DNA of 55,894 nucleotides from Syntrophales bacterium (GCA_030656035.1 JAUSOK010000168.1:1-55894), one strand, 5' to 3'; counted from the first letter of the stretch, positions 9,073 through 29,500 are shown. Translations and numbers: made by a program. Notes: generated by a model from the sequence alone, not told the origin.

Positions 9073-10165
9073 TTACGCCGACAGCAAATAGGCCTCAATA
9101 AAATCGTCAATATCGCCGTCCAGGACGCGTGTGGCGTTTCCAACCTCCAGATTGGTCCGGTGATCCTTGATCATCTTATAGGGATGAAGCACATATGAGC
9201 GGATCTGGCTGCCCCAGGCAATTTCCTTCTTGGATTTGTTCACCTCATCGAGCTTTGCGTTTTGTTCCTGCAGCTTCAGTTCGTAAATGCGCGATTTCAG
9301 ATACTTCATGGCCATGGCCTTGTTTTTGTGCTGGGAGCGTTCATTCTGGCATTGTACGACAATGCCCGTGGGCAGATGGGTCAGCCGTACAGCGGAGTCC
9401 GTCTTGTTTACATGCTGCCCGCCGGCCCCGGTGGAACGATAGGTGTCGATACGAAGATCTTTCTCATCGATTTCCACAACGATCTCTTCATCCACCTCCG
9501 GATAGACAAACACGGAGGCAAAGGAGGTGTGTCTTCTGGCGCCGGCGTCGAAAGGCGATATCCGGACAAGCCGGTGGATGCCGATTTCGGCCTTGGCATA
9601 GCCATAGGCATATTCGCCTTCGATCGTCAGGGAGACGTTTTTCACGCCCGCCTCATCGCCTGGCAAAAAATCGATGATGGTGGTCTTGAACCCCCTGCGT
9701 TCCGCCCAGCGCAGATACATGCGCAAAAGCATCTCCGCCCAGTCCTGTGCTTCGGTGCCGCCCGCCCCGGCGTGAATGGACATGATGGCATTCATGGGGT
9801 CCTGCTCGGAACCCAGCATCATCTTGAGTTCTTCAGCGCGAACAGCGGCCGTCAGGTTTTCCATATCCCGGCCCACTTCCGTCAGGGTTTCCTGGTCCTC
9901 CTCCGCCGTTGCCAGTTCATAAAGTTCATTGAGATCGTCAACCGAGCCTTTGAGCGCCTTCCAGTGGCCGACGATATGATCCAGTCGCGACTTCTTTTTC
10001 AGTACATCACGGGCCTTTTCCTGGTCGTTCCAGAAATCCTCACACAGGGAAAGCGCTTCCAGCTCTTTGATGTTGTTGTCTTTGTCGGGGATGTCAAAGA
10101 CATTCTCCGAGCCGGTCGATTCTTTTTTTCACATTCGCAATGGCTTCGGGCAACGTTTCAATCAT
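9073..10165 (-). CDS. prfB: Peptide chain release factor 2, requiring a programmed +1 frameshift
   Basis: Frame 0 from the ATG at 10165 reads MIETLPEAIANVKKRIDRLGECL, then TGA. The +1 frame continues DIPDKDNNIKELEAL... and joins the 267-aa ORF 9073..9876, which carries the GGQ motif (STGAGGQHVNKTDSAVR). Confidence 0.9.
10093..10099 (-). other. prfB +1 frameshift site CTT TGA C
   Basis: The minus strand reads CGGCTCGGAGAATGTCTTTGACATC. This contains the canonical slippery CUU-UGA-C with a GGAG SD-like element upstream. Confidence 0.85.
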
Positions 10166-11744
10166 AATTCCTGCTCCTTTTTTTAATCGTCACGGTAAAT
10201 ATCAGGATCAATGCGAGGATGCAACCATAAACGAACACATCCCCATAGGTCGAATAAAAGGTGTTTCTGTCCATGAACCGGACCGTCCCTGCTATCGTGG
10301 CTTTTTCAAACAGGGCGCTGCGGGCTTCAATCCGGCCGGTGGGACCAATGATTGCACTGATGCCCGTATTGGCAGCCCGAACCAGGTACAGCCGGTTCTC
10401 CACGGAGCGGAATACCGTCATGGACAGGTGCTGATACGGCGCCGATGTATTGCCGAACCAGGCGTCATTGGTAATATTCACCAGGAGGTTCGCACCCCCT
10501 TGTCGATATGCCCGACCCGCTTCCGGCAGGATGCCCTCATAGCAGATCATGATCCCCATTTTCCGTGGCGGATTGCCCCCCTGCATGCTCAGCGGCTCAT
10601 ATCCGGGGCCGCTGCGAAAATCGCCGATTCCCGCCACCAGTTTGTTGATGAAGGGAAAGAATCGGCGCAAGGGCACGTATTCCCCATAGGGAACCAGATG
10701 AACCTTATCATATTGACCGGCGATCCGGCCATCCGGCGAGAGCAGAAAGGCGCTGTTGAGGAAAACCAGGTCAAGACCGTCCCTCTCGTAGCGGGGACTG
10801 CCGAAGAGCAGCCAGTCGCCGGTCAGCCTTGGGAGGGAAGCCACTTCGCGGTGCATTTCATTCTGATCCTGAAAAAAGAAGGGGGTAGCCGTTTCGGGCC
10901 AGACGATGAGGCCGCCGGCTGACGGGGCGGCCTGCCGGGTAAGGCTTTTGTAGATACGGATCGTTTCATCCTGAAAAGCCGGGCGCCATTTGATGTTCTG
11001 ATCAATATTGCCCTGGATGAGGCTGACGGGCATTTGCGGAGCCTGACCGAGGACTTTCTCTACGTCTCCTATACGAAAAATACCATAACCGAAAAGGATA
11101 ACCATCACCAGGCAGCCTGCGGCAACCTCTGCCGTGATCCGCCTGGCCTGACGTTTCCTGTTCGTCCGTGACCGCCAAAAATTGAGGACGTTAAAAATGA
11201 CCACATTGATTAAGACGATGGCAAAGCTCAGTCCGAAGACACCCGTGATATCAGCCGCTTGGATCAGCGGCCGGTAGAGATACTGTGAATAACCGAGGTT
11301 TTCCCAGGGAAAGCCCGTGAGCAGATGAGATTTTGCATATTCCAGGAAAGTCCAGAGCAACGGCGCCGCAAGTATCGGGGAAACACCCCGGCCATGAAAA
11401 TAAACGACGCCCGCCGCAAACAGCGCCACATATAGAGCCAGATAAGCCGATAGCAGCAGCATGACGGCAATCCCCACAGGAAGCGGGAGATAGCCGTAAT
11501 GAACGACGACGTAGGCAATCCAGTAAATGATCCCGATATAGGCGGAGAAACCGGTCAGGAATCCGGTCAGAAACCCCTGATAAGGCGTTTTCGCTTGCAG
11601 GGCCCAGAGCAGGGGAACGAAAGCAATCCAGGCGAGCAGGCCCGTACCGAACTTGGGAAAGGATAGAAAAAGCAGCAGGCCTGATAATAAGGCCAGGGAA
11701 ATAGTCCTCCTATCGATGGCTGATCGCTCCCCCGCTATTATCAT
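10158..11744 (-). CDS. lnt: Apolipoprotein N-acyltransferase
   Basis: A 528-aa ORF with a multi-TM N-terminal half and a C-terminal nitrilase-like domain (ICYEGILPE, NITNDAWFG). Its stop overlaps the prfB start (ATGATTGA). Confidence 0.85.
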   Translation of the reverse strand: MIIAGERSAIDRRTISLALLSGLLLFLSFPKFGTGLLAWIAFVPLLWALQAKTPYQGFLTGFLTGFSAYIGIIYWIAYVVVHYGYLPLPVGIAVMLLLSAYLALYVALFAAGVVYFHGRGVSPILAAPLLWTFLEYAKSHLLTGFPWENLGYSQYLYRPLIQAADITGVFGLSFAIVLINVVIFNVLNFWRSRTNRKRQARRITAEVAAGCLVMVILFGYGIFRIGDVEKVLGQAPQMPVSLIQGNIDQNIKWRPAFQDETIRIYKSLTRQAAPSAGGLIVWPETATPFFFQDQNEMHREVASLPRLTGDWLLFGSPRYERDGLDLVFLNSAFLLSPDGRIAGQYDKVHLVPYGEYVPLRRFFPFINKLVAGIGDFRSGPGYEPLSMQGGNPPRKMGIMICYEGILPEAGRAYRQGGANLLVNITNDAWFGNTSAPYQHLSMTVFRSVENRLYLVRAANTGISAIIGPTGRIEARSALFEKATIAGTVRFMDRNTFYSTYGDVFVYGCILALILIFTVTIKKRSRNYD

Positions 11745-12544
11745 GTCGCGCTGCCATTCCGATCGCCGGTCAACCGCCTCAGTCTGACTTTTTTGATACT
11801 GCGTTCATCCGCAGATTCGATGATCATTTCGAATTTTTCAATTTCAATCGCTTCACCGGTAATGGGAATTTTCCCGATGGCATGGAGAATCATTCCCCCC
11901 AGGGTCTCGTACTTTCCTTCCGGAAAGGTCACCCCGAAATGATCCTCGATTTTTTCAATGTCCACCCTGGCGTCCACAAGAATGTAACCATCCGCAAGTT
12001 CGGCAATCTCTCCCTCTTCGAGATCATCCTCATCGTGGATTTCTCCGACGATTTCTTCGATCAGGTCCTCGAGCGTCACGAGTCCCGACGTGCCCCCGTA
12101 TTCGTCGATCACAACGGCCATGTGGTATTTGCGCTGCTTCAGTTCATGCAGCAGCAGGTGGGTATTTTTTGTTTCCGGGATATAATAGGGTTTTCTCAGG
12201 ATGGAAAGAATATTGCCTTCCGCCATGGGCTTTGACCAGAATTTGAGCAGGTCCTTCACATTCAGGATGCCGACAATGTTGTCAATGCTGCCGCTGTAAA
12301 CCGGCATCCGCGTGTGACCGTAACGCGTAATGAGATCGATGATCTCCTCAATGGGAGCGCCACTGGGAATGGCGACCATTTCCGTCCGGGGAATCATTAC
12401 CTCGCGGACGAGCGTGTCGCGGAATTCCAGGATGCTCTGGATCATCTCACCGGATTGTGGATCGATCAGACCGTCTTCCTCGCCGGCGTCAATGATGGAC
12501 TGGATTTCTTTTTCAAGCCGGGTGGAATCTTTGGCCGAAAACAT
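11741..12544 (-). CDS. corC: CBS-pair plus CorC/HlyC transporter-associated domain protein (CorC/YbeX-like)
   Basis: A 267-aa ORF with VREVMIPRTEM and a second CBS region (AVVIDEYGGTSGLVTLEDLIEEIVGEI), plus a C-terminal CorC_HlyC-like segment. Overlaps lnt by 4 nt. Confidence 0.8.
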   Translation of the reverse strand: MFSAKDSTRLEKEIQSIIDAGEEDGLIDPQSGEMIQSILEFRDTLVREVMIPRTEMVAIPSGAPIEEIIDLITRYGHTRMPVYSGSIDNIVGILNVKDLLKFWSKPMAEGNILSILRKPYYIPETKNTHLLLHELKQRKYHMAVVIDEYGGTSGLVTLEDLIEEIVGEIHDEDDLEEGEIAELADGYILVDARVDIEKIEDHFGVTFPEGKYETLGGMILHAIGKIPITGEAIEIEKFEMIIESADERSIKKVRLRRLTGDRNGSAT

Positions 12545-12592
12545 CCCCTTGATCTTTGAAGCAATTGTTTTTCTTATAATATTATGCTCCTT

Positions 12593-13465
12593 CTATAATC
12601 CCCGCATGTATTCCGGACGCAATCGCCGGTTATCGCCGGACTGAATGACCTGCTGAATCATGCTGAGGTTTTGTTCCTTCTCCTGGGGCATCCTGGCCCG
12701 GATGGGCAGGTAATTCGAGGCGTGATTGGATGTAAAGAAGCAGTTTGTAAACTCCGTGCGGGCGACCATGACCTCCAGTTCCCTCAGAAACCCGAAGGTG
12801 TCGGGAAGCACAAAGAGGCCGTTGACATAGTCTTCGTACAGCGGCGTTCCGGGAACGACCATCACCGTCAGGGCGCCGACGTAATCGGGATCGATGTCCG
12901 TCAGGATTCTGGCCGTATCCAAGGCGTGTTCGACGCTTTTTTCGATCCCGCCGATGCCCAGAAGCACCGTAGCGGACAGAAGGATTCCGGCATCCTTGAT
13001 CCGCCGGCCCGCTTCGACCATCTGTGCATAGGTCGCCCCTTTGCTGATTTTCTTCAGCAGATCCTCATTTCCGGTTTCCACACCGAGATAGACGATCCGC
13101 AACCCCATCTCCCGCAACTGCACGAGTTCTTCCGGCGTCTTGCGCAGGATGCTCTTGGCGTTGGCATAGCACCCCACCCTTTTGACGCCATTGATATGCC
13201 GCTGGATGGACGACAGAATTTCCACCAGACGCTGCTGCGGGATAATCAGCGCATCGCCGTCACACAGAAAGATCTTCTCCACTAGACGGTAGCGGCTTGC
13301 CTCGAGGATGTCTTCCTCAATTTCCGCAAAGGATTTGATGCGGAACTTTCCCCCCTTATAGGTTGGACAGAAGCTGCATTTATTGTGGGAACACCCGACG
13401 GTCACCTGTAAAAGCAGGCTGTAGGCTTCGCTGGGCGGCCTGATGATCATTCCTTCGTATTTCAT
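12593..13465 (-). CDS. Radical SAM protein, function unknown
   Basis: CxxxCxxC cluster in VGCSHNKCSFCPTY near the N-terminus. I prefer the ATG (MKYEGMIIRPPSE) at 13465 over the upstream TTG at 13474. Confidence 0.75.
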   Translation of the reverse strand: MKYEGMIIRPPSEAYSLLLQVTVGCSHNKCSFCPTYKGGKFRIKSFAEIEEDILEASRYRLVEKIFLCDGDALIIPQQRLVEILSSIQRHINGVKRVGCYANAKSILRKTPEELVQLREMGLRIVYLGVETGNEDLLKKISKGATYAQMVEAGRRIKDAGILLSATVLLGIGGIEKSVEHALDTARILTDIDPDYVGALTVMVVPGTPLYEDYVNGLFVLPDTFGFLRELEVMVARTEFTNCFFTSNHASNYLPIRARMPQEKEQNLSMIQQVIQSGDNRRLRPEYMRGL

Positions 13466-13475
13466 AGTGTGCAAT

Positions 13476-14823: not shown

Positions 14824-15236
14824 CCTTTATAATTACCAGCAGTTGAGAGATTTGAACCCATTTCGAACCGGCACGGCTGGTAAAGACAAGGCTCTTTACG
14901 CGCTGGGTGAGCGCCTTAAAGACAGGTCGCGAACACGGCATTAAATTTGGATTCTGTTTAGATTAGCGGGATTTTCCTGCCGAAGTTTCTTGTCAAGAAA
15001 GGTGGGAAGGTCAATGACAAACGCTATCACGGCCGTCTTTCTACACGCCTGGTCGAAAAATAGCAAGAACTATTTTCAACTATTTTTGCGTATTTGCGAA
15101 AAATATGCTGTTTTCGTGAATCGACACAGCACCCCATGAAAAAGAAGGTTCTTATCAATGGAAAGTCAAACCGTTATTAAAGTTCTCATCCCGCCTGTGC
15201 TGTTCCGACAGCACCAAAATAAACGAGGTGATGACT

Positions 15237-17561
15237 ATGGGACTCTCTATCTTTCTTAAATCACTGGATATTTTTTCCGATCTGAACGATCGGGAAAGGT
15301 TCATCCTTGCCGAAAACGCGCAAGGGATTGAATACGCCCCCGATGCTGCGATCATCAAACGGGGGGAAATCGGCAGTTTCCTCTGGATTGTCCAGGAGGG
15401 GGAGGTGAAAGTGATCCTGCCGCCGTCCGGTTCGGCAGGAGAAATCACCATCCTTTTAAAAACAGGCTCCCTGTTCGGCGAAATGTCGATCATGACCGGG
15501 GAACCGGCCAGCGCGGACGTCGTGGCTGCGACCGCCTGCAGGCTGATCAAGATCCCGAGGGATGCCGTTTCCCAATTGATCGCCGGAAATCCCAAGACCC
15601 TGGGAAAATTTGCCCGGCTGATCACGGAGCGGATGCTCAGCAATGCCCGGGTCGCAGCCCAACAGGATCTCCAGCGGTCCGCCCACCAGGTTAATGAAGA
15701 TCCTTACGATCTGAATTTTTCCTCGGCCTCGGAACCGCTGAAAATCCTGGTTTTGAACAGCGGCAGTTCATCCCTGAAGTATTCCCTTTTCGACACCATC
15801 CAGAACCAGCCGCTCCTCGAGGGGGAAATTGAAAAAATCGGTTCCGGCGATGCCGCCCATCAGATCAGAACCCCTCAGACAAAGCGGAAGGATCCGCAAC
15901 CGAGCGTCATGAACATGAACGACGCCTTTGATGTCATGATCCGTACCCTCACAGACCCAGAATTTGCGGCCATCGACCGTCTCAGTGATCTCAATGCAGT
16001 CGGTCACCGTGTCGTACACGGCGGCGGACAATTTTCCAATGCCGTGGTTATCAATGAAAATGTCATGGCCTCGATCCGTTCTTCCTGTTCGCTGGCGCCA
16101 CTGCACAATCCTTACAATCTGGAGGGAATAGAACGCATGCAGCTCCTGTTGCCTGATATCCGGCAGGTGGCTGTCTTTGACACGGCCTTTCACCAGACCA
16201 TGCCCAGCCATGCCTATACCTATGCGCTCCCCCATGAGATCTGTGAAAAGGAACAGGTCCGGCGCTACGGTTTTCACGGAACCAATCATGAATACGTGGC
16301 GCTCCGGGCGGCCACCTGGCTCAAGCGCCCCCTGGGCGAGTTGAAAATTATCTCCTGTCATCTGGGCAACGGCGCCTCCCTCTGCGCCATCGACCATGGG
16401 CGCAGTATCGACACGAGCATGGGCATGACCCCCCTCGAAGGTCTGATCATGGGCACACGGCCCGGGGATGTGGACCCCGGCGTCATCCTTCATCTCATGA
16501 AGGGCGCTTCTTTAAATTTCGAAAACATGGACCGGATGCTGAACAAGGAAAGCGGATTGAAGGGCATCAGCGGAAAAAATGACATGCGGGAAATCCTTGC
16601 CGGCGCAGAACAGGGTGATGTGCAATGCACCCGGCCCGTCAGCGCTTTCTGTTACAGGATCCGCAAATATATCGGCGCCTATGTGGCTGCTCTGGGCGGG
16701 CTCGACGTTTTGATCTTCACTGCCGGCATCGGCGCCAATTCCTCCGAAATCCGTGCCGGGATCTGCCAGGGGCTGGACCTGTTCGGCATTTACCTCCTTA
16801 AGGACCGCAATCTGCACAGCGTGGATCAGGGACAGGTCCTGGACGTTTCCGCGCCGGACGCCAGGGTCCGGATACTGGTGATCCCTGCCGACGAGGAACG
16901 CATGATCGCCCGGAAGACCCTTCATGCCATGGGCCGGGTCCGGACCGTCGAAGAAACAAGGATGCTCCGGTCGAAACCGGTCCCCATCAGTGTTTCCGCA
17001 CATCATGTCCATCTAAGTCAGCCTGATTTTGAACAGCTCTTCGGTCAGGGGAAAACGATGACCCCAAGATCCGATCTGACCCAGCCGGGCCAGTTTGCCT
17101 GCCAGGAAACGGTCAATCTCATCGGACCGAAAGGACGGGTCAGCCGTGTCCGTATTCTCGGCCCCAGCCGGAAGGAATCACAAGTGGAAATTTCGCGTAC
17201 CGAGGAATTTCAGTTGGGGATCGACGCCCCTGTCAGGGAATCAGGAGACCTGGCCGGGACGCCGGGGATCACCATCGAGGGGGAAGCGGGTAGGATTGAA
17301 CTGGAAAAGGGAGTTATCTGCGCAAAGCGTCATATCCACATGTCTCCCGAAGACGCCCTCGGCTTCGGCCTCCGCAATCGTGATGTGGTCCGGCTGGGGG
17401 TCAGGGGCGAGCGGGGACTGATTTTCGGCGACGTGGTGATCCGTGTGGATCCGAACTTCAGGCTGGATATGCACATTGATACGGATGAAGCCAACGCCGC
17501 TGAGATTTCTACCGGGGCATCGGGATTCATCGACTCGATCCAGCACCGGCGTTATATGTAA
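15237..17561 (+). CDS. Tri-domain fusion: cyclic-nucleotide-binding domain + acetate/propionate kinase + PduL-type phosphate acyltransferase
   Basis: N-terminus shows a Crp-like cNMP fold (IIKRGEIGSFLWIVQEGEVKV...GSLFGEMSIMTGEPASADVVA). The middle shows AckA motifs (LVLNSGSSSLKYSLFD, VGHRVVHGG, FDTAFHQTMP, YGFHGTNHEY, FTAGIGANS). The C-terminus shows PduL motifs (SAHHVHLS, GPSRKESQVEISRTE, AKRHIHMSPEDA, LDMHIDTDEANAA). A GAGGTG SD lies 6 nt before the ATG at 15237; the GTG at 15228 and the ATG at 15231 are alternative starts. Confidence 0.85.
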   Translation: MGLSIFLKSLDIFSDLNDRERFILAENAQGIEYAPDAAIIKRGEIGSFLWIVQEGEVKVILPPSGSAGEITILLKTGSLFGEMSIMTGEPASADVVAATACRLIKIPRDAVSQLIAGNPKTLGKFARLITERMLSNARVAAQQDLQRSAHQVNEDPYDLNFSSASEPLKILVLNSGSSSLKYSLFDTIQNQPLLEGEIEKIGSGDAAHQIRTPQTKRKDPQPSVMNMNDAFDVMIRTLTDPEFAAIDRLSDLNAVGHRVVHGGGQFSNAVVINENVMASIRSSCSLAPLHNPYNLEGIERMQLLLPDIRQVAVFDTAFHQTMPSHAYTYALPHEICEKEQVRRYGFHGTNHEYVALRAATWLKRPLGELKIISCHLGNGASLCAIDHGRSIDTSMGMTPLEGLIMGTRPGDVDPGVILHLMKGASLNFENMDRMLNKESGLKGISGKNDMREILAGAEQGDVQCTRPVSAFCYRIRKYIGAYVAALGGLDVLIFTAGIGANSSEIRAGICQGLDLFGIYLLKDRNLHSVDQGQVLDVSAPDARVRILVIPADEERMIARKTLHAMGRVRTVEETRMLRSKPVPISVSAHHVHLSQPDFEQLFGQGKTMTPRSDLTQPGQFACQETVNLIGPKGRVSRVRILGPSRKESQVEISRTEEFQLGIDAPVRESGDLAGTPGITIEGEAGRIELEKGVICAKRHIHMSPEDALGFGLRNRDVVRLGVRGERGLIFGDVVIRVDPNFRLDMHIDTDEANAAEISTGASGFIDSIQHRRYM

Positions 17562-22294: not shown

Positions 22295-23125
22295 ATGCAG
22301 GCCCTGTTTACCCTTACACCGTCGGAATCAAAGCGGTTGATCGCCAAAGGTGTGGCGGCGCTTCCCGAGATCAAGCACGCCATGAAAAACGGCTATCTCC
22401 TCGTAGGTAGAGGATCGACCAATGCCTACATCCTTGAAGAGCTTCTGGGCGACAAGATCAGGAAGGAAGCTTACACGGCGGGTCAGGTCATCAAAGGCGT
22501 CCTGTGCGTCCTCGGACCGGATGACCGGATCAAGCCCATGATTTTCCACAAGGGCAAGGCGATCGCCGCAGAGCCGGCTTCCGTTCTGGACAAACTCTCT
22601 CCGGATGATATTCTGCTGAAAGGGGCCAATGCCATCGATCATAAAGGAAATGTCGGCGTCATCATGGCAAGCCCCACGGGCGGGACCATGGGTCAGTTTT
22701 ACATGGCCATGAAGGCCCGGGGTCTGGAAATCATCTACCCCGTGGGACTTGAAAAGATGATTCCCTCGGTGGAGCTGGCGGCCCAGTTCGGCGGAACGCT
22801 GGTTCTCGGCAAGACCATCGGCGCACGCGTTGGAATGGCCTGTGTTGCCGACGGGGCTCCCTTCACGGAAATCGATGCGATTGAGAGTCTTTTTGGAATC
22901 GAGGCCGTTCACTTCGCTTCCGGCGGGTGGGGCGGCGCCGAAGGATGCGTTACCCTGATTGTTGACGGGCCGGACGCAGAGGTTAAAAAATGCATCAAAT
23001 TCATTGAGCAGAAGATTAAAGGTGAACCGCCGCTGCCGGCCGCCAAGAGTCCCTGCAAGACGTGCGGCCTTCCCTGCAGTTTCCAGGGGAAAGATCTGAA
23101 ACAACTGCCGGGATATTTGAAGTGA
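22295..23125 (+). CDS. Conserved hypothetical protein; possible LUD/DUF162-like fold with a Cys-rich C-terminal tail
   Basis: AAAGGAGAA SD before the ATG at 22295. The segment ILLKGANAIDHKGNVGVIMASPTGG...IIYPVGLEKMIP resembles the NAI(T)-xG...G-N-K-I core of LUD-domain proteins (recalled from memory). The tail is CKTCGLPC. Confidence 0.4.
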   Translation: MQALFTLTPSESKRLIAKGVAALPEIKHAMKNGYLLVGRGSTNAYILEELLGDKIRKEAYTAGQVIKGVLCVLGPDDRIKPMIFHKGKAIAAEPASVLDKLSPDDILLKGANAIDHKGNVGVIMASPTGGTMGQFYMAMKARGLEIIYPVGLEKMIPSVELAAQFGGTLVLGKTIGARVGMACVADGAPFTEIDAIESLFGIEAVHFASGGWGGAEGCVTLIVDGPDAEVKKCIKFIEQKIKGEPPLPAAKSPCKTCGLPCSFQGKDLKQLPGYLK

Positions 23126-23275
23126 AGAACCCCGCCCACAGGGCGGGGCTTCTGAACGGGTAGACGCAGGCTTTAGCCTGCGCGAAAAGCATCCGCCATT
23201 CATCCCCGCTCACAGAGCGGGGCATTCTGGCGCTTTTCGTAAACAAACGAGCTAAACCCCGCACACAAAGCGGGC
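23122..23275. repeat. Cluster of three related GC-rich hairpin units (REP-like) plus one extra hairpin between convergent genes
   Basis: The three units are CCCCGCCCACAGGGCGGGG (23130..), CCCCGCTCACAGAGCGGGG (23204..) and CCCCGCACACAAAGCGGG (23257..). CGCAGGC-TTT-AGCCTGCG lies at about 23165..23182. Unit spacing is 74 and 53 nt. Confidence 0.5.
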
Positions 23276-25276
23276 GATGATTTTAAAGGCGCCTTTTTCC
23301 AGATTTTTCAGGTGGAGGCGCTGATAATCGGAATGCAGCGGATCGAGGATGACTTCCCGGTATTCCCGGGTTTTTGCGTCGGCGCTGCCGCTCTTGAAGC
23401 GCCTGACCGTCAAATGGCCGTTCCGGCTTGGATCGTAGATGTCTTTGCCATAAACAAAAAGAATTGCCTCATCGAGGGAACCCCTGATGTCGCTGTCAAA
23501 GACAGCAAAATGACCATCCGATATCAGGGGTTCCATGGCCTGACCCTCGATGCGCATGACAAACATGGATTTGTCCAGCTTTTTCCCGATTCCGACTTCC
23601 ATCCATCCCTCTTCCGCGGCATCCTTGCCCTGGACGAATTCGTCAAATGCTGATTCCATGGAATAAAAGGGCAGATATCGTGTAAAGCGTTCCTTGCGCC
23701 CAGGCCCGATGACCAGGGTTAGACGGGGTTTTTCTTTTTGATCCCTCATGAAATATCTGCGGACCGAGATTATTGGAAAGACCGTTTCCACTGCAATCTT
23801 GTCGCTCATTTCCGTCCATTTTTTGGCCAGCCCCCGGCCTTCTTTCGTTAACGCCGCCTCAATCGTCTCGATCTGCTTTGGTGGCTTCCCCTCAACATCC
23901 GGCCAGAAAGGATCATTCATGGCCGGCCTGAGACACTCATCCGGATTGATCCATGAAATCAATTCAGCGAAAGGAAAACCTTTTTTCCGCTGTCTGAGAA
24001 TCGTCGCCCCGTCAAAACCTGCGGTTATAAGATCCTCATCGAAGAGTGTGGCGTGCCTGGATTTTGCAATATCGCAGAGGGCCGCTTTAACCAGCACTCT
24101 CTGCGCTGTTTGTACAAGGGCAAGCCGCTCCTGTTGCCGGGCTGCGTGGCGGTCCTTCAACCTGGAATCCTCACGAGCCTTCAGGAGGGCGTGAAAGTGC
24201 TCTCTGGCCTTGATCTCGGACGCGGCAGACGGCGCGTCTTCAAACACCCGTTCGTTGAAAACCACCCCTTCCAGTTCCGCGATAGAACGCAGGGGATTAA
24301 TCTGGCTTGACCGTAGGTGATAATAAACCACCAGAGGCTCCGGTGAAGCGGACTCCAATCGCACGAGCGGCAGACGGCAAGACTCCGGATTCTCCAATGC
24401 CGCCGCTTCCTGCACCCCCCCCTCTCCTTCATGCCTGCTTTTCTCGTGAGACCGATCCGTCTCATCCGCAGGAAAATATGGGATATCCCGCAGAAATTGA
24501 TCAATAATCGCCTTCTTGACATCGGGGCTGATCCCGGATTTCCCTGCAGATGCATCTGCCCGGCGGTCGCGAACCGGCGCTTTCCGGGGACAAAATTCAA
24601 TCAGACGGTCAATCACGGCTCCCGGCAGAGCCAGGGAGCGCCATCCCGGTTCCTTGCCTTCCCAGAGCCGTTCAAAGTGTTGCCGGATCGCCTGCAGATA
24701 GAGGCCGCCGGGTTCCCAGGATTTATAGACCATCAAATGTTCATAGTTCTGATCGCCGGCGTCTGAGGATTCGCTGATGGTCCCGTAAAAACCGAGCTGA
24801 TTGCCCTCTGCATCTGTAAAAATCCCCAGGCGGGGTAAATCATTAGCTATGGCTACAGTGCCGCCTGGATTTTTGCCGTCCTTCAGTGGCAGGGCGACGC
24901 GAATATCGAGGGTTTTTTCGGCGGCCATCCAGCCCAGGAGTTCCAGCCTCTGATTCATCCAGGGGTCTACGACATCAAGCAAAGACAGGAATTTATCGCG
25001 CAGGATCTTCTGCAATCCCTGGATTCTCCCAACGTCTCCTGCATCTCCGTCCTCAAGCCCGGCGCCGACCAACAGGCGCATGTGGCCCCTGTTCCTGATC
25101 AGCGCGTCAACACCCCTTGCGGCGATTGCCAATGCGGACGCTGAGAACAAGCCCGTGGTCCGGTCATAGCGGACACTGCGGGCCAGGGCCGGAAGATAGA
25201 GGCTGTTGAGGCGGTCGTCCAGGGGTCCATAGGAGATACTGAAATCCAGATCGAGCAGATAGTCTGAAGACGCCAA
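23252..25276 (-). CDS. Multidomain protein: degenerate HKD/PLD-like N-terminal module, an unassigned middle region of about 300 aa, and a C-terminal LexA/S24-like domain lacking the Ser/Lys dyad
   Basis: TTG start 7 nt after a GGAGGG SD that lies in the last codons of the upstream gene. The N-terminus contains LYLPALARSVRYDRTTGLFSASALAIAARGVDALIRNRGHMRLLVGAGL and LPRLGIFTDAEGNQLGFYGTISESSDAGDQNYEHLMVYKSWE. The C-terminus contains MRIEGQAMEPLISDGHFAVFD and HLTVRRFKSG. Confidence 0.6.
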   Translation of the reverse strand: MASSDYLLDLDFSISYGPLDDRLNSLYLPALARSVRYDRTTGLFSASALAIAARGVDALIRNRGHMRLLVGAGLEDGDAGDVGRIQGLQKILRDKFLSLLDVVDPWMNQRLELLGWMAAEKTLDIRVALPLKDGKNPGGTVAIANDLPRLGIFTDAEGNQLGFYGTISESSDAGDQNYEHLMVYKSWEPGGLYLQAIRQHFERLWEGKEPGWRSLALPGAVIDRLIEFCPRKAPVRDRRADASAGKSGISPDVKKAIIDQFLRDIPYFPADETDRSHEKSRHEGEGGVQEAAALENPESCRLPLVRLESASPEPLVVYYHLRSSQINPLRSIAELEGVVFNERVFEDAPSAASEIKAREHFHALLKAREDSRLKDRHAARQQERLALVQTAQRVLVKAALCDIAKSRHATLFDEDLITAGFDGATILRQRKKGFPFAELISWINPDECLRPAMNDPFWPDVEGKPPKQIETIEAALTKEGRGLAKKWTEMSDKIAVETVFPIISVRRYFMRDQKEKPRLTLVIGPGRKERFTRYLPFYSMESAFDEFVQGKDAAEEGWMEVGIGKKLDKSMFVMRIEGQAMEPLISDGHFAVFDSDIRGSLDEAILFVYGKDIYDPSRNGHLTVRRFKSGSADAKTREYREVILDPLHSDYQRLHLKNLEKGAFKIIARFVCGV

Positions 25277-25279
25277 TGA

Positions 25280-26872
25280 TTATCCCTCCACTTCTTTGAG
25301 AGCCTGATCCTGATAGGCATGGTAAAGGCGCTGACAGAAACGGTCCCAGCGCTCACAGATCATGATGGTTTTATCATCCGGCTGGAAGAGGTCGGGGTAT
25401 GCGACCAGCTCGGTGATTTCAGCCTTGAGCCTGTCGATAACATCGGAGTCTCCGTTCTTAAGGATGTTTTCAACGAATTCCGTCGGGCTATACCACTTTG
25501 AAGCTCGCTGGAAATCCCGGTGCATCTGTGTCAACAGCACATTGCGCGGTCCCTCCCATAGCTCGTTTACGGCGGCGTCCCGGTATAATCTCGGCAGGCA
25601 CGAAAAATCTTCAATCACCCCATGACCGCCGAAAATGGACATGGCGGCGCGGATCACATCCGTTGCATCCCAGGAGGCTGCAATCTTCTGCAGCATAATG
25701 AGTTCCCGGATCTCGAACTGTTTCTTCTTCGCGGTTTCCGGCCCGTCCTTCGTCATCCCGCCTTGCAGGCCGCCCTCCAGTCTCAGAAATTCGTCATAGA
25801 GTTTAAAGGCGGCGGCGGTTGTCCTTTTTGCGGATTTTTCCATGGATCGCAACTGGCCCGTGACCATGGGGAATTGGCCCACCCTGAAACCGAAGGCTTC
25901 CCTGAATTCAGTATATTTTCTTGCTTCCCGGACAGCCCGCGTCATGAAGGCGGCGCAGGACAGCCCGACGGTCAAGCGGGAATAGGTCAGAACGATGCCC
26001 ACCACATTGGCGAGCCCGCGCGCGAGCGGACCGACGGGATAGGCAACCGCCCCGTGATAGGTTATTTCCGCAGTGGTCAACTCGCTTGTTCCCAGCTTCC
26101 ACTTGATGCGGTCAATGGTGCAACCGTTTCGGACTTCTTTCGCCTTGTCGCCGGGAAGCCACGAAGGAACAACGAACAGGGCGACCTCTTCCGATCCTGA
26201 CGGCTTCGCCGTCACAACGGCATAATCGGCATGGGTGGCGGAACAGAAAAACTTTGTGCCGTAGAGCTTCCAGACATCCCCTTCCCGGACGGCTTCCAGA
26301 ACATTGGCGGGCACATCCGATCCGCCCTGAATCTCGGAAAGGTACTGGGCGCCGATGGCAAAATCGTCATCGATGCCCTCCTTGCAGTGGGCCAGAATGT
26401 GTTTCGTATCGGTGCTGTCGGCATACTTTTCCAGAATCGCAACCAGCCCTTCCGTGCAGGTGATGGGACAGGCAATGCAGGCTTCGCCGTTCTGATAGAT
26501 CAGGTACATTTTGATGAGCCGGACCCAAGGGGGCGTTTTCGCGGAAAACATGGCTTCCGCAAAGACTTCCTTCTCCATGATTTCCGTCTCCGCCGGCCGG
26601 ACGATCCGGTCGATCCGGTGGTGATGCCCGTCATAGTGCATCATATAGGGGCGTTTCTCAGGCCATGCAATGATTTCCGCAAAGTCTCGCCAGCGAAAAG
26701 ACACTTTTCGGGATATGCGCCGGGCGCATTGATCCGTCTGTTCCCATTTATCACCGGTGTAATGCTTCACCACCTTCTGGATGAAGGGATCATCGGCATA
26801 ATAATCGACGGCTTTACGCCACGCCAAAAAATCGTCAAAACTGTAAGGGTTATTTCTATCCGGTAGTGACAT
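25280..26872 (-). CDS. AidB-like acyl-CoA dehydrogenase family flavoprotein
   Basis: About 530 aa with the ACAD fold pattern (WKLYGTKFFCSATHADYAVVTAK, FGGHGVIEDFSCLPRLYRDAAVNELWEGPRNVL) and the extra N- and C-terminal regions typical of AidB-type members. The ATG at 26872 is preceded by GAGGGAGG; the ORF track begins at the TTG at 26887. Confidence 0.75.
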   Translation of the reverse strand: MSLPDRNNPYSFDDFLAWRKAVDYYADDPFIQKVVKHYTGDKWEQTDQCARRISRKVSFRWRDFAEIIAWPEKRPYMMHYDGHHHRIDRIVRPAETEIMEKEVFAEAMFSAKTPPWVRLIKMYLIYQNGEACIACPITCTEGLVAILEKYADSTDTKHILAHCKEGIDDDFAIGAQYLSEIQGGSDVPANVLEAVREGDVWKLYGTKFFCSATHADYAVVTAKPSGSEEVALFVVPSWLPGDKAKEVRNGCTIDRIKWKLGTSELTTAEITYHGAVAYPVGPLARGLANVVGIVLTYSRLTVGLSCAAFMTRAVREARKYTEFREAFGFRVGQFPMVTGQLRSMEKSAKRTTAAAFKLYDEFLRLEGGLQGGMTKDGPETAKKKQFEIRELIMLQKIAASWDATDVIRAAMSIFGGHGVIEDFSCLPRLYRDAAVNELWEGPRNVLLTQMHRDFQRASKWYSPTEFVENILKNGDSDVIDRLKAEITELVAYPDLFQPDDKTIMICERWDRFCQRLYHAYQDQALKEVEG

Positions 26873-26933
26873 CAGAACCTCCCTCAATGATTAAATGAAA
26901 AAATTTGATGGTCTTTATACAATCCCGGCTTCA

Positions 26934-29189
26934 TTAAAAGGTTTGTCCCAGGTACAGGTACAGGGAGCTATGACCTCCTTCGGCGAAGCCGCCGGCAAAA
27001 TACAACGGGCCGATGTAGGTATCCGCCCCGACAAAGACACTTCCGGCCCAGAGGGCTGAAGAAAACCGGATATCCTCGCTCTTGTTCCAGGCGTTCCCCT
27101 TTTCAAGGGAACCTCCGAGATAGACGGGGATTTTAAAGGCCGTCAGACCATGGCCGGCAATTTTTTGCAGGTAAACCAGCCGGGCAAGGCCCGTATAACG
27201 CCCGGATATTTCATTCTTTGAAAATCCCGATAAGTTCAAAAAACCGCCCATGGAGAACACATCCTGAATGGGCGCCTGGTTGTCCATGATTGTGCTGAAA
27301 GAGAGACTGGGCAGGAAGGTATGATTGCCCCAGGTTTTTGCCGTCATCCAGCTTCCGCCGAGCATGTGCACAGAAACATCATCTCCGAGTTCCTTGAGCG
27401 CCGCATGATAGACCACGTTGGCGTTTGTCCCCTTTTGCGGGAAATTGAAATTGTCGAGGCTGTTGTAGATATGCTGGAAACGCAGGCGGCCGATCTCAAA
27501 ATCTTCGCTGAAACCCGGATCGCCGATACGTCCGCTGACGTGGCCCTTCCCCCTGAGAATGCCCAGTCGCATCTCCCCCCAGGTGCCGAACTGACGTCCC
27601 ACATCCAGGCCGCCCAGCATTGTCTTTACCCGGTATTGAGCGGCGATGGAACTTCCGCTGTAGGTGTTGATATTCTGTTCTTTATACTCGGCGTAAGGTG
27701 CAACAAAATAGCTCATGGAAGCGTCGACCGGCTGGTAATATTCAGTAAACACCCGGGGCATGGCTCCGATTTGCGCTTCGGTGCGCCATTCGGCGCCGAG
27801 GCGGTTGATCGCAGGTTTGGTAAAACTCACGGCAATGTTATAACTGCCCGAGCCTTTAAAATCGTCTTCCAGATTCACACCAAAACGGAAGTAACTCGGA
27901 CGCCAGGACTTTTCGAGCGTCTCTATGCGTAATGCTTTTTTCCCATCCATCTCTTCAAGATGATAATCAACGCGATCAAAGGCGTCGATGCCGTAAATCC
28001 TGGTCAGATCCTTTTTGAGCTTTTCCGAATCCAGCCGGTCTCCAGGCTTTATACTCAGGTGCGACGCAATTGCCTGATCCGATATCCTGGAATGATTGTC
28101 GATTCGAACATAATCAATGACCGGAGGCGGTGTTGACTTCCGTCTCTGGCGATCAAGATAGGAGCTGTAGGCATCCGGGGAAACGCTCAGGCGCTGCAGT
28201 TCCATCTTCATCTTCCCGGCAGCCTCTTTGCCGATCGGAATGGCTACATGCCCCTTGGTAAAATCGCTTGACCCGATCTCTCCGAGCTGCGGCAGGATCA
28301 GGACATCCTTTGCAGTAAGCGTCTTTAACTGTTCCCGGGTATTGCGCTGAATGAGGATCGTGATCAACTGGACCGTTATCGTCATCGCCGAACTCAGACT
28401 TTCCCTCGTCCGCAGCGGCGTGCCGATATCCACAACGATTAGAACCTCCGCGCCCATCTGCCTGGCCACATCCATGGGAAGATTGTTGGCGACGCCGCCG
28501 TCAACCAGCAGCCTTCCTTTGCGCTCGACGGGCGTGAACAGTCCGGGGATGGACATGCTGGCACGAATGGCCGTGGACAGCTCGCCGTCGCCAATGACAA
28601 CGGACTCGCCCGTTTCGACATCCGCCGCAATGGCCCGGAAAGGGATGTTCAATCGATCGAAATTTTGCACCGTCTCGGCCTGGCCGATAAATGATTTCAA
28701 AATGAGGCTGAGATTCTGTCCCTGGAATAAGCCCATGGGAATGGTCAGCTTGCCGTCTTTGAACCCCAATTCGAACTTCATGAGGAAATTGGCGTAATCC
28801 CATTTCCGCCTAAACGGCAGATCCTGTAGGGGCGGCACATCGCGGAAGGCGTCGTTCCATTCCAGACCGGTGACGATTTTCTCCAGTTCCGCCGGAGACA
28901 GCCCGGAGGCATAGAGTCCTCCGACAATGGCGCCCATGCTGGTTCCGGAAATATAATCGATGGGGATTCTCATTTCCTCCAGGAACTGGATGACGCCAAT
29001 GTGCGTCAGCCCGCGCGCGCCCCCTCCACTCAAGACAAGCCCGATCCGGGGCCGGTCCGGCAAACCCGCCTGACTGGCGCCTGCAGCGGCCGGCAAGATG
29101 GTAACGAGAAAAATGACGAGCAGTGAAAGCAGGGAGCTGCAAACTATATATACGGCCACAGCGCCATCATGATATTTTCGCACAATCAT
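26934..29189 (-). CDS. Patatin-like phospholipase fused to POTRA/Omp85-type beta-barrel (PlpD-like, type Vd secretion architecture)
   Basis: GLVLSGGGARGLTHIGV oxyanion motif, GTSMGA (GxSxG) and DGGVANNLP (catalytic Asp). A C-terminal half of about 350 aa rich in aromatic beta-strand patterns ends in ...LYLYLGQTF. Confidence 0.8.
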   Translation of the reverse strand: MIVRKYHDGAVAVYIVCSSLLSLLVIFLVTILPAAAGASQAGLPDRPRIGLVLSGGGARGLTHIGVIQFLEEMRIPIDYISGTSMGAIVGGLYASGLSPAELEKIVTGLEWNDAFRDVPPLQDLPFRRKWDYANFLMKFELGFKDGKLTIPMGLFQGQNLSLILKSFIGQAETVQNFDRLNIPFRAIAADVETGESVVIGDGELSTAIRASMSIPGLFTPVERKGRLLVDGGVANNLPMDVARQMGAEVLIVVDIGTPLRTRESLSSAMTITVQLITILIQRNTREQLKTLTAKDVLILPQLGEIGSSDFTKGHVAIPIGKEAAGKMKMELQRLSVSPDAYSSYLDRQRRKSTPPPVIDYVRIDNHSRISDQAIASHLSIKPGDRLDSEKLKKDLTRIYGIDAFDRVDYHLEEMDGKKALRIETLEKSWRPSYFRFGVNLEDDFKGSGSYNIAVSFTKPAINRLGAEWRTEAQIGAMPRVFTEYYQPVDASMSYFVAPYAEYKEQNINTYSGSSIAAQYRVKTMLGGLDVGRQFGTWGEMRLGILRGKGHVSGRIGDPGFSEDFEIGRLRFQHIYNSLDNFNFPQKGTNANVVYHAALKELGDDVSVHMLGGSWMTAKTWGNHTFLPSLSFSTIMDNQAPIQDVFSMGGFLNLSGFSKNEISGRYTGLARLVYLQKIAGHGLTAFKIPVYLGGSLEKGNAWNKSEDIRFSSALWAGSVFVGADTYIGPLYFAGGFAEGGHSSLYLYLGQTF

Positions 29190-29451
29190 AATGAAGGAAT
29201 GACTCCTACGAGAAACAGGATTGAACCCCTGTCGCTACAGGACTCAGGATGATTTTATTCAGGGGGCAATCTTTTCAGGACCACACATATCATAATTCGC
29301 TGATCATCCACTATGATCTTTTCTCTTCATGGCACAAATTTCTTAAATAGTTGAAATTCCATCCTGCCCGACCTGTGCCGATCACGGCAGCAAAGGCCGG
29401 AGGGACGATCACGATTCCATCGCCTCCATTTTTATTATTTCTTCTATTGAC

Positions 29452-29500
29452 ATCTTCTATATGTTGTGGTGGAATATAAAGCATCATACCATATGTTGTA
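29452..29500 (+). promoter_or_regulatory. Candidate tandem NrdR boxes upstream of nrdJ
   Basis: Two related imperfect palindromes, ACATCTTCTATATGTTGT and ATACCATATGTTGTAT. Their shared core C(T/C)ATATGTTGT starts at 29457 and 29489, which is 32 bp apart. They lie 45-95 nt before the nrdJ ATG. Confidence 0.45.

What the first reader, a model, noticed from the sequence alone, without database searches (positions are those of the whole stretch)
23252..26872. Two-gene operon: AidB-like flavoprotein plus a PLD-like/S24-like multidomain protein. Candidate undescribed DNA-damage or defence module.
Seen in sequence:
- The 674-aa ORF starts at a TTG 3 nt after the stop of the AidB-like gene.
- Its GGAGGG SD lies inside the last codons of that gene (GTGGAGGGATAATCATTG), so the two are almost certainly co-transcribed and translationally linked.
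- The 674-aa protein joins three parts that I do not know as a described architecture. The first is an N-terminal region of about 230 aa. Its pattern (LYLPAL..S.RYDR..G.FS.SAL...A.G...LI.N.G.MRLLVG, then ..LGIFTD..GN...F.G..SES..A...NYE....YKSWE, then LWEG) recalls the HKD/PLD-like module normally fused to SF2 helicases in restriction/defence-type proteins. The second is about 300 aa with no motif I can place. The third is a C-terminal LexA/S24-like beta-barrel.

Established knowledge: E. coli AidB belongs to the adaptive response to alkylation and binds DNA.

Inference: a DNA-oriented flavoprotein paired with a nuclease-like/LexA-like sensor protein suggests a DNA-damage or foreign-DNA-responsive module. 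The flanking genes (the patatin/Omp85 gene, and a convergent hypothetical gene behind REP-like hairpins) are unrelated.
Basis: partly seen in the sequence, partly recalled or inferred. Interest (0 to 1): 0.75.

Follow-up and report, generated by a model that had tools for sequence, protein, structure and literature searches.

The report
Dead helicase-less relic of defence nuclease
The 674-aa protein descends from a restriction-type nuclease-helicase but has lost its helicase core and the catalytic residues of both its nuclease-like and LexA-like domains, and its pairing with the acyl-CoA dehydrogenase looks like lineage-specific neighbourhood, not a defence or DNA-damage module.

Summary
The sequence observation holds. 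On the minus strand a 530-aa acyl-CoA dehydrogenase (ACAD, 25280-26872) is followed after 3 nt by a 674-aa ORF (X674, 23252-25276) that starts at TTG, with its GGAGGG Shine-Dalgarno inside the ACAD's last codons. The fold calls also hold: the N-terminus is PLD/HKD-like and the C-terminus is LexA/S24-like.

The functional reading does not hold.
- X674 aligns in two blocks to an HKD-Swi2/Snf2 helicase, residues 7-271 and 298-508. The roughly 760-aa helicase core between them is missing.
- The HKD His, Lys and Asn are absent in 26 of 26 family members.
- The S24 Ser-Lys dyad is Ala-Arg, and the Ala-Gly cleavage site is Ala-Phe.
- The gene is still intact and under purifying selection (omega about 0.2-0.3) in about 25 clusters of Syntrophales-like MAGs.
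- It sits in a housekeeping neighbourhood, not a defence island.
- The ACAD belongs to a very large family (at least 1955 hits). It occurs without X674, and X674 occurs without it in 4 of 12 readable contexts.

Best reading: a domesticated, non-catalytic binding or scaffold protein, probably co-transcribed with a metabolic ACAD. It is a new variant of a known kind, of modest interest.

One side lead: active versions of this S24 module cap many restriction and defence enzymes.

The parts
25280..26872 (-). Acyl-CoA dehydrogenase (530 aa) of the ACAD10/11/AidB-like clade
   Evidence: Pfam finds Acyl-CoA_dh_M, Acyl-CoA_dh_1 and a weak AidB_N match. The NCBIfam AidB model gives 100 bits against a 545-bit cut-off. 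Best solved structures are 6sd8, ACDH-11, 5ez3, then AidB. There are at least 1955 homologues. dN/dS is about 0.1.
25274..25291 (-). Gene junction GTGGAGGGATAATCATTG: the SD GGAGGG sits inside the last ACAD codons, followed by the TAA stop, a 3-nt spacer and the TTG start of X674
   Evidence: Read directly from the sequence. The same junction is present in L001, L004, L006, L008 and L017, with variants in L007 and L015. A GGAGGG plus TTG is also kept in L002, which has no ACAD.
23252..25276 (-). X674: a 674-aa multidomain protein with no detectable catalytic site
   Evidence: ORF. There are 25 full-length homologue clusters. dN/dS is 0.17-0.31, and every domain is under purifying selection.
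24464..25258 (-). PLD/HKD-like domain (residues 7-271), homologous to the N-domain of HKD-Swi2/Snf2 helicases (PbeA / Type-2 BREX-related helicases)
   Evidence: PADLOC PbeA E=6.5e-40. It is 45% identical to P0062 residues 6-270, E=4e-72. Foldseek hits SauUSI, NgoAVII-R, PLD and BfiI.
24770..24838 (-). Degenerate HKD motif (residues 147-169): L147-P-R149-L-G-I-F-T-D155 ... G165-T166-I-S168-E169, in place of HxKxGIFxD...GSxNE
   Evidence: At the His, Lys and Asn positions, 0/26 family members keep the residue; 36/36 helicase-linked relatives do.
24386..24463 (-). Low-conservation junction (residues 272-297) at the position where relatives carry the roughly 760-aa Swi2/Snf2 helicase core
   Evidence: X674 matches P0062 in two blocks, at 6-270 and at 1031-1241. 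P0025 keeps an extra segment matching P0062 954-1030. AF2 pLDDT is below 50 here, and dN/dS is the highest in the protein.
23753..24385 (-). Middle alpha-rich domain (residues 298-508), homologous to the post-helicase C-terminal region of HKD/Snf2 helicases. It carries the invariant YYHL and HATLFD..GFD motifs.
   Evidence: phmmer E=7e-35 to P0062 1031-1230. It also matches P0071, P0081, P0097 and P0206. AF2 predicts long helices with pLDDT 80-90. No PDB fold match was found.
23255..23704 (-). LexA/S24-like beta-barrel with its cleavage-site strand (residues 525-674). It is predicted inactive: A580 replaces Ser, R625 replaces Lys, and A543-F544 replaces Ala-Gly.
   Evidence: Pfam 21.2 bits. 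Foldseek hits LexA 3jsp at E=2.9e-5, plus lambda cI and UmuD.
23130..23275 (+). Three copies of the hairpin CCCCGCNCACANAGCGGGG (23130, 23204, 23257) in and next to the convergent intergenic region. They are probably bidirectional terminators or REP-like elements. The third copy overlaps the last codons of X674.
   Evidence: One search found 3 matches against 0.01 expected. The terminator scan picks up the third copy.

Best explanation
X674 is a domesticated pseudo-enzyme.

Its ancestor was a restriction/defence-type effector of the HKD-endonuclease + Swi2/Snf2-helicase class (PbeA / Type-2 BREX-related helicase), with a LexA-like C-terminal module.

Shown:
- In this lineage the whole helicase core was deleted.
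- The HKD active site was lost: His to Leu, Lys to Arg, Asn to Ser.
- The S24 module lost its nucleophile, its general base and its scissile Ala-Gly.
- All three remaining domains are nevertheless kept under purifying selection, at a fixed position in a housekeeping chromosomal neighbourhood of a Syntrophales-like clade.

Inferred:
- The protein acts non-catalytically, as a binding or scaffolding protein for nucleic acid and/or a protein partner.
- It probably self-associates, because both the single-HKD fold and the LexA C-domain are dimerising folds.

The upstream ACAD is an ordinary member of a very large metabolic flavoenzyme family. In one sub-lineage it came to lie immediately upstream, and the two genes are probably co-transcribed and translationally coupled. 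Nothing indicates that they form a functional DNA-damage or anti-phage module.
For: Helicase deletion:
- Two-block homology to P0062, which has PLDc_2 plus an SNF2 helicase. X674 7-271 matches P0062 6-270 (E=4e-72), and 298-499/508 matches 1031-1230/1241 (E=7e-35).
- The divergent member P0025 keeps 77 more post-helicase residues.
- No helicase domain is detected in X674.

Dead HKD.

Dead S24: the family has Ala plus Arg in 27 rows, while 136/168 relatives have Ser plus Lys. The cleavage-site strand reads ESAF against AAAG in relatives.

Folds.

Still functional:
- Intact in 25 clusters down to 37% identity.
- Omega is 0.17-0.31 overall and 0.12-0.28 in each domain.

Core-genome context:
- The order RNR-(patatin)-ACAD-X674-conv276 recurs.
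- The 37%-identity homologue in L003 is followed by rSAM-CorC-Lnt-RF. The same genes lie at window 9073-13474.
- GC content is unremarkable.
- The whole window is housekeeping.

ACAD independence: together with the X674 loci that lack an ACAD.

The closest HKD-intact relatives sit in DUF499-ASCH-DUF1156 methylase-helicase operons. That is the Type-2 BREX-related architecture described in PMC12839542.
Against: - No experiment and no direct functional clue exists. The binding/scaffold role is inferred from loss of catalytic residues plus retained constraint.
- The ACAD-X674 junction, with its 3-nt gap and SD, is conserved down to 55% X674 identity (L015). That is more than trivial and could reflect a real functional link in that sub-lineage.
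- Arg at the HKD Lys position is tolerated in some active HKD nucleases, such as the HRD motif of BrxL-HKD (PMC12839542). Only the missing His and Asn argue strongly for inactivity.
- An ancestor carrying all four modules (HKD-Snf2-mid-S24) in one protein was not found. The known relatives carry HKD-Snf2-mid (P0062) or Snf2-mid-S24 (P0097, P0206, P0081).
- The AF2 models are mediocre, with mean pLDDT 61-62.
Confidence: 0.6

Rival explanations
1. The ACAD (as an AidB-like, DNA-directed flavoprotein) and X674 (as a nuclease-like/LexA-like sensor) form a two-gene module that responds to DNA damage or foreign DNA.
For: - The genes are tightly coupled: a 3-nt gap with the SD inside the upstream gene.
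- The adjacency is conserved in 8 (plus 1 probable) of 12-13 readable contexts, including one at 55% X674 identity.
- All three X674 modules come from restriction/defence-type proteins.
Against: - The catalytic residues of both candidate enzymatic domains are absent, and the helicase is gone.
- The ACAD has no PADLOC hit.
- The ACAD is closer to ACAD10/11-type enzymes than to AidB, and AidB's C-terminal region is not matched.
- The ACAD family is about 80 times larger than the X674 family and occurs without it.
- X674 stays intact where the ACAD is absent (L002, L016, L003, L012).
- There is no defence-island context.
Confidence: 0.1
2. X674 is a non-catalytic sensor or adaptor. Its dead S24 barrel still docks on RecA-ssDNA filaments, as LexA, UmuD and cI do. 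Its dead HKD and middle domains still hold DNA. This would target the protein to damaged or replicating DNA without cutting anything. This is a specific version of the best explanation.
For: - The S24 barrel and its cleavage-site strand are the most conserved part of the protein. R533-Y538 are invariant, column identity is 0.83-0.88, and omega is 0.12-0.28.
- The fold matches LexA and UmuD, including RecA-bound structures 8gms and 8gmt.
- Many invariant Arg and Lys residues occur in all domains.
Against: There is no test of RecA or DNA binding. LexA residues that contact RecA were not mapped. Conservation could equally serve dimerisation or another partner.
Confidence: 0.2
3. X674 is a decaying remnant, a pseudogene in the making, with no function. 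The operon appearance is accidental.
For: It has lost every recognisable catalytic feature. It evolves 2-3 times faster than its neighbours: 58-79% identity where the neighbours are 86-93%.
Against: - The ORF is full-length and uninterrupted in 25 clusters down to 37% identity.
- Omega is well below 1 in every domain.
- Dozens of columns are invariant.
- The SD and start codon are conserved.
Confidence: 0.05

Closest known systems
HKD-endoDNase + Swi2/Snf2 helicase effectors: PbeA of DndCDEA-PbeABCD (PMC6459918, PMC10853773) and the helicase of Type-2 BREX-related (DUF499-DUF1156) systems (PMC12839542)
   Same: The N-terminal roughly 265 aa are clearly homologous: PADLOC PbeA 6.5e-40, and 43-45% identity to P0026, P0027 and P0062. 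The middle domain is homologous to the post-helicase region of P0062. P0026 and P0027 sit in DUF499-ASCH-DUF1156-helicase operons.
   Different: There is no helicase core at all. The HKD His, Lys and Asn are replaced. No DUF499, DUF1156, PbeBCD or dnd genes are nearby. The location is core-genome and housekeeping. A C-terminal S24-like domain is present, which P0026, P0027 and P0062 lack.
LexA / UmuD / lambda cI C-terminal domain (Peptidase S24)
   Same: The same beta-barrel fold, including a strand equivalent to the cleavage-site region (Foldseek probability 1.0, E down to 2.9e-5; Pfam 21 bits).
   Different: Ser is replaced by Ala580, Lys by Arg625, and Ala-Gly by Ala543-Phe544, so self-cleavage is not expected. 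There is no N-terminal HTH. The module belongs to a sub-family otherwise attached to restriction and defence enzymes.
E. coli AidB and ACAD10/11-type acyl-CoA dehydrogenases (for the upstream gene)
   Same: An ACAD middle and C-terminal domain plus an AidB_N-type N-terminal extension, about 530 aa long.
   Different: It scores only 100 bits against the AidB equivalog model, whose cut-off is 545. The AidB alignment stops at residue 446 of 541. The better matches are 6sd8 and C. elegans ACDH-11. It is one of at least 1955 close family members in Syntrophales-like genomes.
Non-catalytic members of enzyme folds that act by binding, for example the PLD-fold archaeal chromatin protein TrmBL2 (5bpd) and the inactive REase domains of BREX-type helicases
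   Same: An enzyme fold is retained and constrained after loss of its catalytic motif. TrmBL2 appears among the Foldseek hits, though weakly at rank 50. Inactive REase sensor domains are described for the same helicase class (PMC12839542).
   Different: This is an analogy only. No binding activity has been shown for X674, and the simultaneous inactivation of two domains plus excision of the motor is unusual.

Membership tests
PLD/HKD endonuclease superfamily (PbeA / BR-helicase N-domain) | PLD-type fold and sequence homology | tested here: met
   PADLOC PbeA E=6.5e-40. 45% identity to the P0062 N-domain. Foldseek hits SauUSI, NgoAVII-R, PLD and BfiI with probability about 1.
PLD/HKD endonuclease superfamily (PbeA / BR-helicase N-domain) | Catalytic HxK(x)4D(x)6GSxN motif | tested here: not met
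   X674 has L147, R149, D155, G165, T166 and S168. At the His, Lys and Asn positions, 0/26 family members keep the residue; 36/36 helicase-linked relatives do.
HKD-Swi2/Snf2 defence helicase (PbeA, Type-2 BR helicase) | SF2 (Swi2/Snf2) helicase core | tested here: not met
   No ResIII, SNF2 or Helicase_C hit. The two-block alignment to P0062 skips its residues 271-1030.
HKD-Swi2/Snf2 defence helicase (PbeA, Type-2 BR helicase) | Operon with DUF499 ATPase plus DUF1156 methylase, or with PbeBCD/Dnd genes | tested here: not met
   No such domains were found anywhere in the window. They are present next to P0026 and P0027.
Peptidase S24 (LexA/UmuD/cI) | LexA C-domain beta-barrel fold | tested here: met
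   Foldseek gave 17 hits at E<=1e-3 to LexA, cI and UmuD. Pfam scored 21.2 bits, just below the 23.3 gathering score.
Peptidase S24 (LexA/UmuD/cI) | Ser-Lys catalytic dyad | tested here: not met
   X674 has A580 and R625. The family has Ala+Arg in 27 rows, and P0025 has Ser+Arg. Among relatives, 136/168 have Ser+Lys.
Peptidase S24 (LexA/UmuD/cI) | Ala-Gly (or Cys-Gly) self-cleavage site in the strand preceding the barrel | tested here: not met
   X674 reads RYLPFYSMESAFDEF. Active relatives read YLPvYSLkAAAGxF.
AidB (E. coli adaptive-response flavoprotein) | Equivalog-level similarity to AidB | tested here: not met
   NF008594 scored 100.2 bits against a 545-bit cut-off. Among solved structures AidB ranks fourth, at E=4.7e-21.
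AidB (E. coli adaptive-response flavoprotein) | C-terminal DNA-binding domain | tested here: inconclusive
   The alignments to the AidB model and to 3djl end at AidB residues 443-446 of 540-541. The last roughly 70 aa of the window protein are unmatched. No structure comparison was done.
AidB (E. coli adaptive-response flavoprotein) | Ada-regulated expression or a role in alkylation resistance | not testable with these tools
   This needs expression or phenotype data.
Known anti-phage defence systems (PADLOC-DB v2) | A full-length match of the proteins to a system component, with the partner genes present | tested here: not met
   X674 matches only positions 15-230 of the roughly 680-position PbeA models. 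The ACAD has no hit. No partner genes are in the window.

The most novel reading that the evidence does not exclude
X674 is not inert. It could be an exapted damage or foreign-DNA sensor or adaptor. Its dead LexA-like barrel would still dock on RecA-ssDNA filaments, and its dead HKD and middle domains would still grip DNA. In the sub-lineage where the flavoprotein is translationally coupled, it would recruit or regulate that enzyme.

There is a wider reading. The active Ser-Lys/Ala-Gly versions of this S24 module cap ResIII, Schlafen-type, Type ISP, AlwI, Eco57I, HNH and Snf2 enzymes. They could be an undescribed RecA*-gated proteolytic switch on restriction and defence enzymes.
Probability: 0.12. 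Interest if true: 0.65.

Novelty: new variant of a known kind. Interest (0 to 1): 0.33.

Why it matters
If the reading is right, this is a clean natural example of a defence effector being dismantled and then kept. The motor was excised and two active sites were erased, yet all remaining domains stay under selection in the core genome of a syntrophic deltaproteobacterial clade. That is useful for understanding how defence genes are domesticated. It is also a caution against calling defence systems from domain homology alone.

It does not open a new defence or DNA-repair mechanism.

The more promising lead lies outside the window. A LexA-like module that looks self-cleaving is attached to many restriction and defence enzymes. 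I found no description of it in the literature searches I ran.

Tried and rejected
- **RapA-type C-terminal domain.** I asked whether the middle domain is the RapA-type C-terminal alpha+beta domain described for BrxHII/BR helicases. hhalign of the family profile against E. coli RapA gave probability 0.09, so this is not supported.
- **Profile search against PDB sequences.** The family profile found nothing at E<=1.
- **Foldseek on the middle domain.** The residue 235-674 model gave only S24-type hits, so the middle domain has no solved-structure match.
- **tblastn against plasmids.** X674 residues 301-674 gave one weak partial hit.
- **PHROGs.** Only weak repressor-type (S24) hits appeared.
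- **Promoter and terminator scan, 22900-29500.** Counts were not above the shuffled expectation. No terminator was found between the two genes and no convincing internal promoter.
- **GC profile.** No anomaly that would suggest recent transfer.
- **conv276 as a specific partner.** The convergent 276-aa neighbour is the most constant neighbour of X674. However, it has at least 1910 homologues across Syntrophales, far more than X674, so the adjacency is synteny. It has no Pfam or PDB match.
- **Literature.** Searches for S24 or LexA-like domains fused to helicases or restriction enzymes returned nothing relevant.

Full report
**1. Observation**

The feature lies on the minus strand.
- The ACAD ORF runs 25280-26872 from its ATG (530 aa, the length of its homologues).
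- X674 runs 23252-25276 and starts at TTG.
- The junction reads GTGGAGGGATAATCATTG. GGAGGG lies in the last ACAD codons, followed by the TAA stop, 3 nt and the TTG start.
- The same junction is present in L001, L004, L006, L008 and L017, with variants in L007 and L015. L002 has no ACAD and still has GGAGGG plus TTG in front of X674.

Both genes are real.
- X674 has 25 full-length homologue clusters at 37-98% identity. All come from Deltaproteobacteria/Syntrophus-type MAGs. The best is 98% identical to a protein of 'Deltaproteobacteria bacterium HGW-Deltaproteobacteria-11'.
- dN/dS against six to thirteen orthologues is 0.17-0.31 for X674. It is 0.05-0.12 for the ACAD, the RNR gene and the convergent neighbour.

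**2. Anatomy of X674**

*N-terminal domain (residues about 7-271)*
- It matches the first roughly 230 positions of five PADLOC PbeA models, with a best E of 6.5e-40.
- It is 32-45% identical to the N-termini of many 650-1250-aa proteins carrying PLDc_2 plus SNF2/ResIII/Helicase_C.
- Foldseek on the AF2 model gives SauUSI, the NgoAVII R-protein, bacterial PLDs, BfiI and Zucchini.
- PbeA has been re-annotated as an HKD endoDNase fused to an SF2 helicase (PMC10853773).
- The closest HKD-intact relatives, P0026 and P0027, lie in DUF499-ASCH-DUF1156 methylase-helicase operons. That is the 'Type-2 BREX-related' architecture of PMC12839542.
- The catalytic motif is gone. Relatives have HxKxG(I/L)FxD...GSxNE, with H, K and N present in 36/36. 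X674 has L147-P-R149-L-G-I-F-T-D155...G165-T166-I-S168-E169. None of the 26 family members keeps His, Lys or Asn at these positions.

*Middle region*
- An exhaustive HMMER search of 1.84 billion representatives with residues 235-674, followed by local phmmer and BLASTP, gave the key result.
- P0062 is a 1252-aa PLDc_2 + SNF2 helicase. It matches X674 twice: X674 7-271 with P0062 6-270 (E=4e-72), and X674 298-499/508 with P0062 1031-1230/1241 (E=7e-35).
- The roughly 760 residues of helicase core between the two blocks have no counterpart in X674. Their place is taken by a 26-residue, poorly conserved, low-pLDDT linker.
- The most divergent family member, P0025 (720 aa), retains an additional stretch matching P0062 954-1030.
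- X674 is therefore a helicase-deleted derivative of this protein class.
- The middle domain is alpha-rich with good pLDDT and has no solved-structure match.
- A suspected link to the RapA-type C-terminal domain was tested and not supported.

*C-terminal domain (residues about 525-674)*
- Pfam Peptidase_S24 scores 21.2 bits, just below the gathering cut-off.
- The truncated AF2 model gives 17 Foldseek hits at E<=1e-3 to LexA, lambda cI and UmuD.
- In the alignment of 168 relatives, 136 keep the Ser-Lys dyad. All X674-family rows have Ala plus Arg (A580, R625), except P0025, which has Ser plus Arg.
- The preceding strand reads YLPvYSLkAAAGxF in active relatives, an Ala-Gly site as in LexA. In X674 it reads RYLPFYSMESAFDEF.
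- The nucleophile, the general base and the scissile bond are all missing.

*Constraint.* All three domains are constrained (omega 0.12-0.28), and the linker less so.

**3. Context and the ACAD**

The window is housekeeping throughout. It encodes M16 and M20 peptidases, PhoH and YbeY, RF, Lnt, CorC, a radical SAM protein, a DEAD-box helicase, an acetate kinase fusion, RND efflux, patatin-Omp85, class II RNR, an amidase, RelA/SpoT, ProRS, IspG and GlgE/trehalose/glycogen genes. GC content is unremarkable.

Contexts of X674 homologues:
- The order RNR-(patatin)-ACAD-X674-conv276 is found in the window, L001/L005, L004, L006, L007, L008 (partial), L015 and L017. It is probably also present in the P0019 contig.
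- The ACAD is absent while RNR, X674 and conv276 remain in L002 and L016.
- The two most divergent homologues have other neighbours. L003 has rSAM-CorC-Lnt-RF, the same genes that lie at window 9073-13474, which points to an old shared neighbourhood. L012 has ClpP-ClpX-Lon upstream and PNPOx and GGDEF downstream.

Evidence that the ACAD is independent:
- It has at least 1955 homologues at E<=1e-20, with more than 100 clusters at 71-76% identity.
- In two long contigs it stands alone next to a TetR gene with no X674.
- conv276 likewise has at least 1910 homologues.
- X674 is thus a narrow-clade gene wedged between two broadly distributed core genes.

Evidence that the ACAD is not AidB-like in a functional sense:
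- It is nearer to 6sd8 and ACDH-11 than to AidB.
- It scores 100 bits against the 545-bit AidB equivalog cut-off.
- It shows no match to AidB's C-terminal region.
- The JGI label 'AidB-like' is a generic label for this family.

**4. Mechanism**

Shown:
- X674 has lost the motor and both sets of catalytic residues.
- It remains under purifying selection in a core-genome position.

Inferred:
- It works by binding, not catalysis. It probably acts as a self-associating scaffold or adaptor for nucleic acid or a protein partner.
- It is probably co-transcribed and translationally coupled with the ACAD where the two are adjacent.

A more specific version, that the dead S24 barrel still docks on RecA filaments, is possible but untested. 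The two-enzyme 'damage/defence module' reading is unlikely. A functionless remnant is unlikely, given the constraint.

**5. Comparison and novelty**

The protein is related to PbeA / Type-2 BR helicases and to LexA-type S24 domains. It fails the defining catalytic and architectural features of both (see the membership table). I found no description of this architecture. It is best filed as a new, degenerate variant of a known kind.

**6. Side observation**

The S24 sub-family to which X674's C-domain belongs has 638 representative hits. Its active-looking members sit at the C-termini of restriction and defence-type enzymes. Among 66 long members, Pfam finds:

| Pfam family | Members |
|---|---|
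| ResIII | 16 |
| Schlafen-group-3 helicase | 11 |
| Type ISP C-domain | 6 |
| MZB | 4 |
| SWI2/SNF2 | 4 |
| Methylase_S | 3 |
| HNH | 3 |
| AlwI | 2 |
| Eco57I | 2 |
| N6_Mtase | 2 |

Single members carry PLDc_2, DUF3427, GIY-YIG or nSTAND. Limited literature searches found no account of this. It deserves its own follow-up.

**Verdict**

The functional interpretation is largely unsupported. Interest is modest.

Noticed in passing
relatives of window 23255-23704 (proteins P0061-P0207; e.g. P0065, P0075, P0079, P0112, P0132): The LexA/S24-like module of X674 belongs to a sub-family whose other members keep the Ser-Lys dyad and an Ala-Gly site (YLPvYSLkAAAG). They sit at the C-terminus of restriction and defence-type enzymes: ResIII, Schlafen-g3/DUF2075 helicase, Type ISP, AlwI, Eco57I, HNH, Snf2, Methylase_S, GIY-YIG and nSTAND. 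This could be a RecA*-gated self-cleavage switch. The literature searches I ran did not find it described.
   Followed up: partly
window 23130-23148, 23204-23222, 23257-23275: Three copies of the hairpin CCCCGCNCACANAGCGGGG lie between the convergent genes X674 and conv276 (0.01 expected by chance). The third copy overlaps the last codons of X674. They look like REP-like elements or bidirectional terminators.
   Followed up: partly
window 22295-23125 (+): The convergent 276-aa conserved hypothetical gene (conv276) has no Pfam or PDB match. It has at least 1910 homologues in Syntrophales-type genomes and is strongly constrained (omega 0.05-0.12). It is the most constant neighbour of X674, and its function is unknown.
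   Followed up: partly
window 26934-29189 (-): A patatin-POTRA-Omp85 fusion protein (751 aa, resembling PlpD/type Vd secretion) ends 61 nt upstream of the ACAD start, so it may share a transcript with the ACAD and X674. It is present between RNR and the ACAD in the window and in L015, but absent at that position in L001, L004-L007 and L017.
   Followed up: no
window 15228-17561 (+): A 777-aa ORF fuses a cyclic-nucleotide-binding domain, an acetate kinase and a PTAC phosphate acyltransferase domain in one protein. This is an unusual fused and possibly cNMP-regulated Pta-Ack unit.
   Followed up: no
window 9073-9876 (-): The release-factor ORF (PCRF plus RF-1 domains) is only 267 aa and starts at profile position 75 of PCRF. 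That is what a prfB gene with its programmed +1 frameshift would look like. I did not check it.
   Followed up: no
window 23252-25276 compared with its neighbours, in loci L001-L017: In the same genome pairs X674 is 55-79% identical, while the RNR, ACAD and conv276 genes are 80-93% identical. X674 therefore evolves 2-3 times faster in dN than its core-genome neighbours, while staying under purifying selection.
   Followed up: yes
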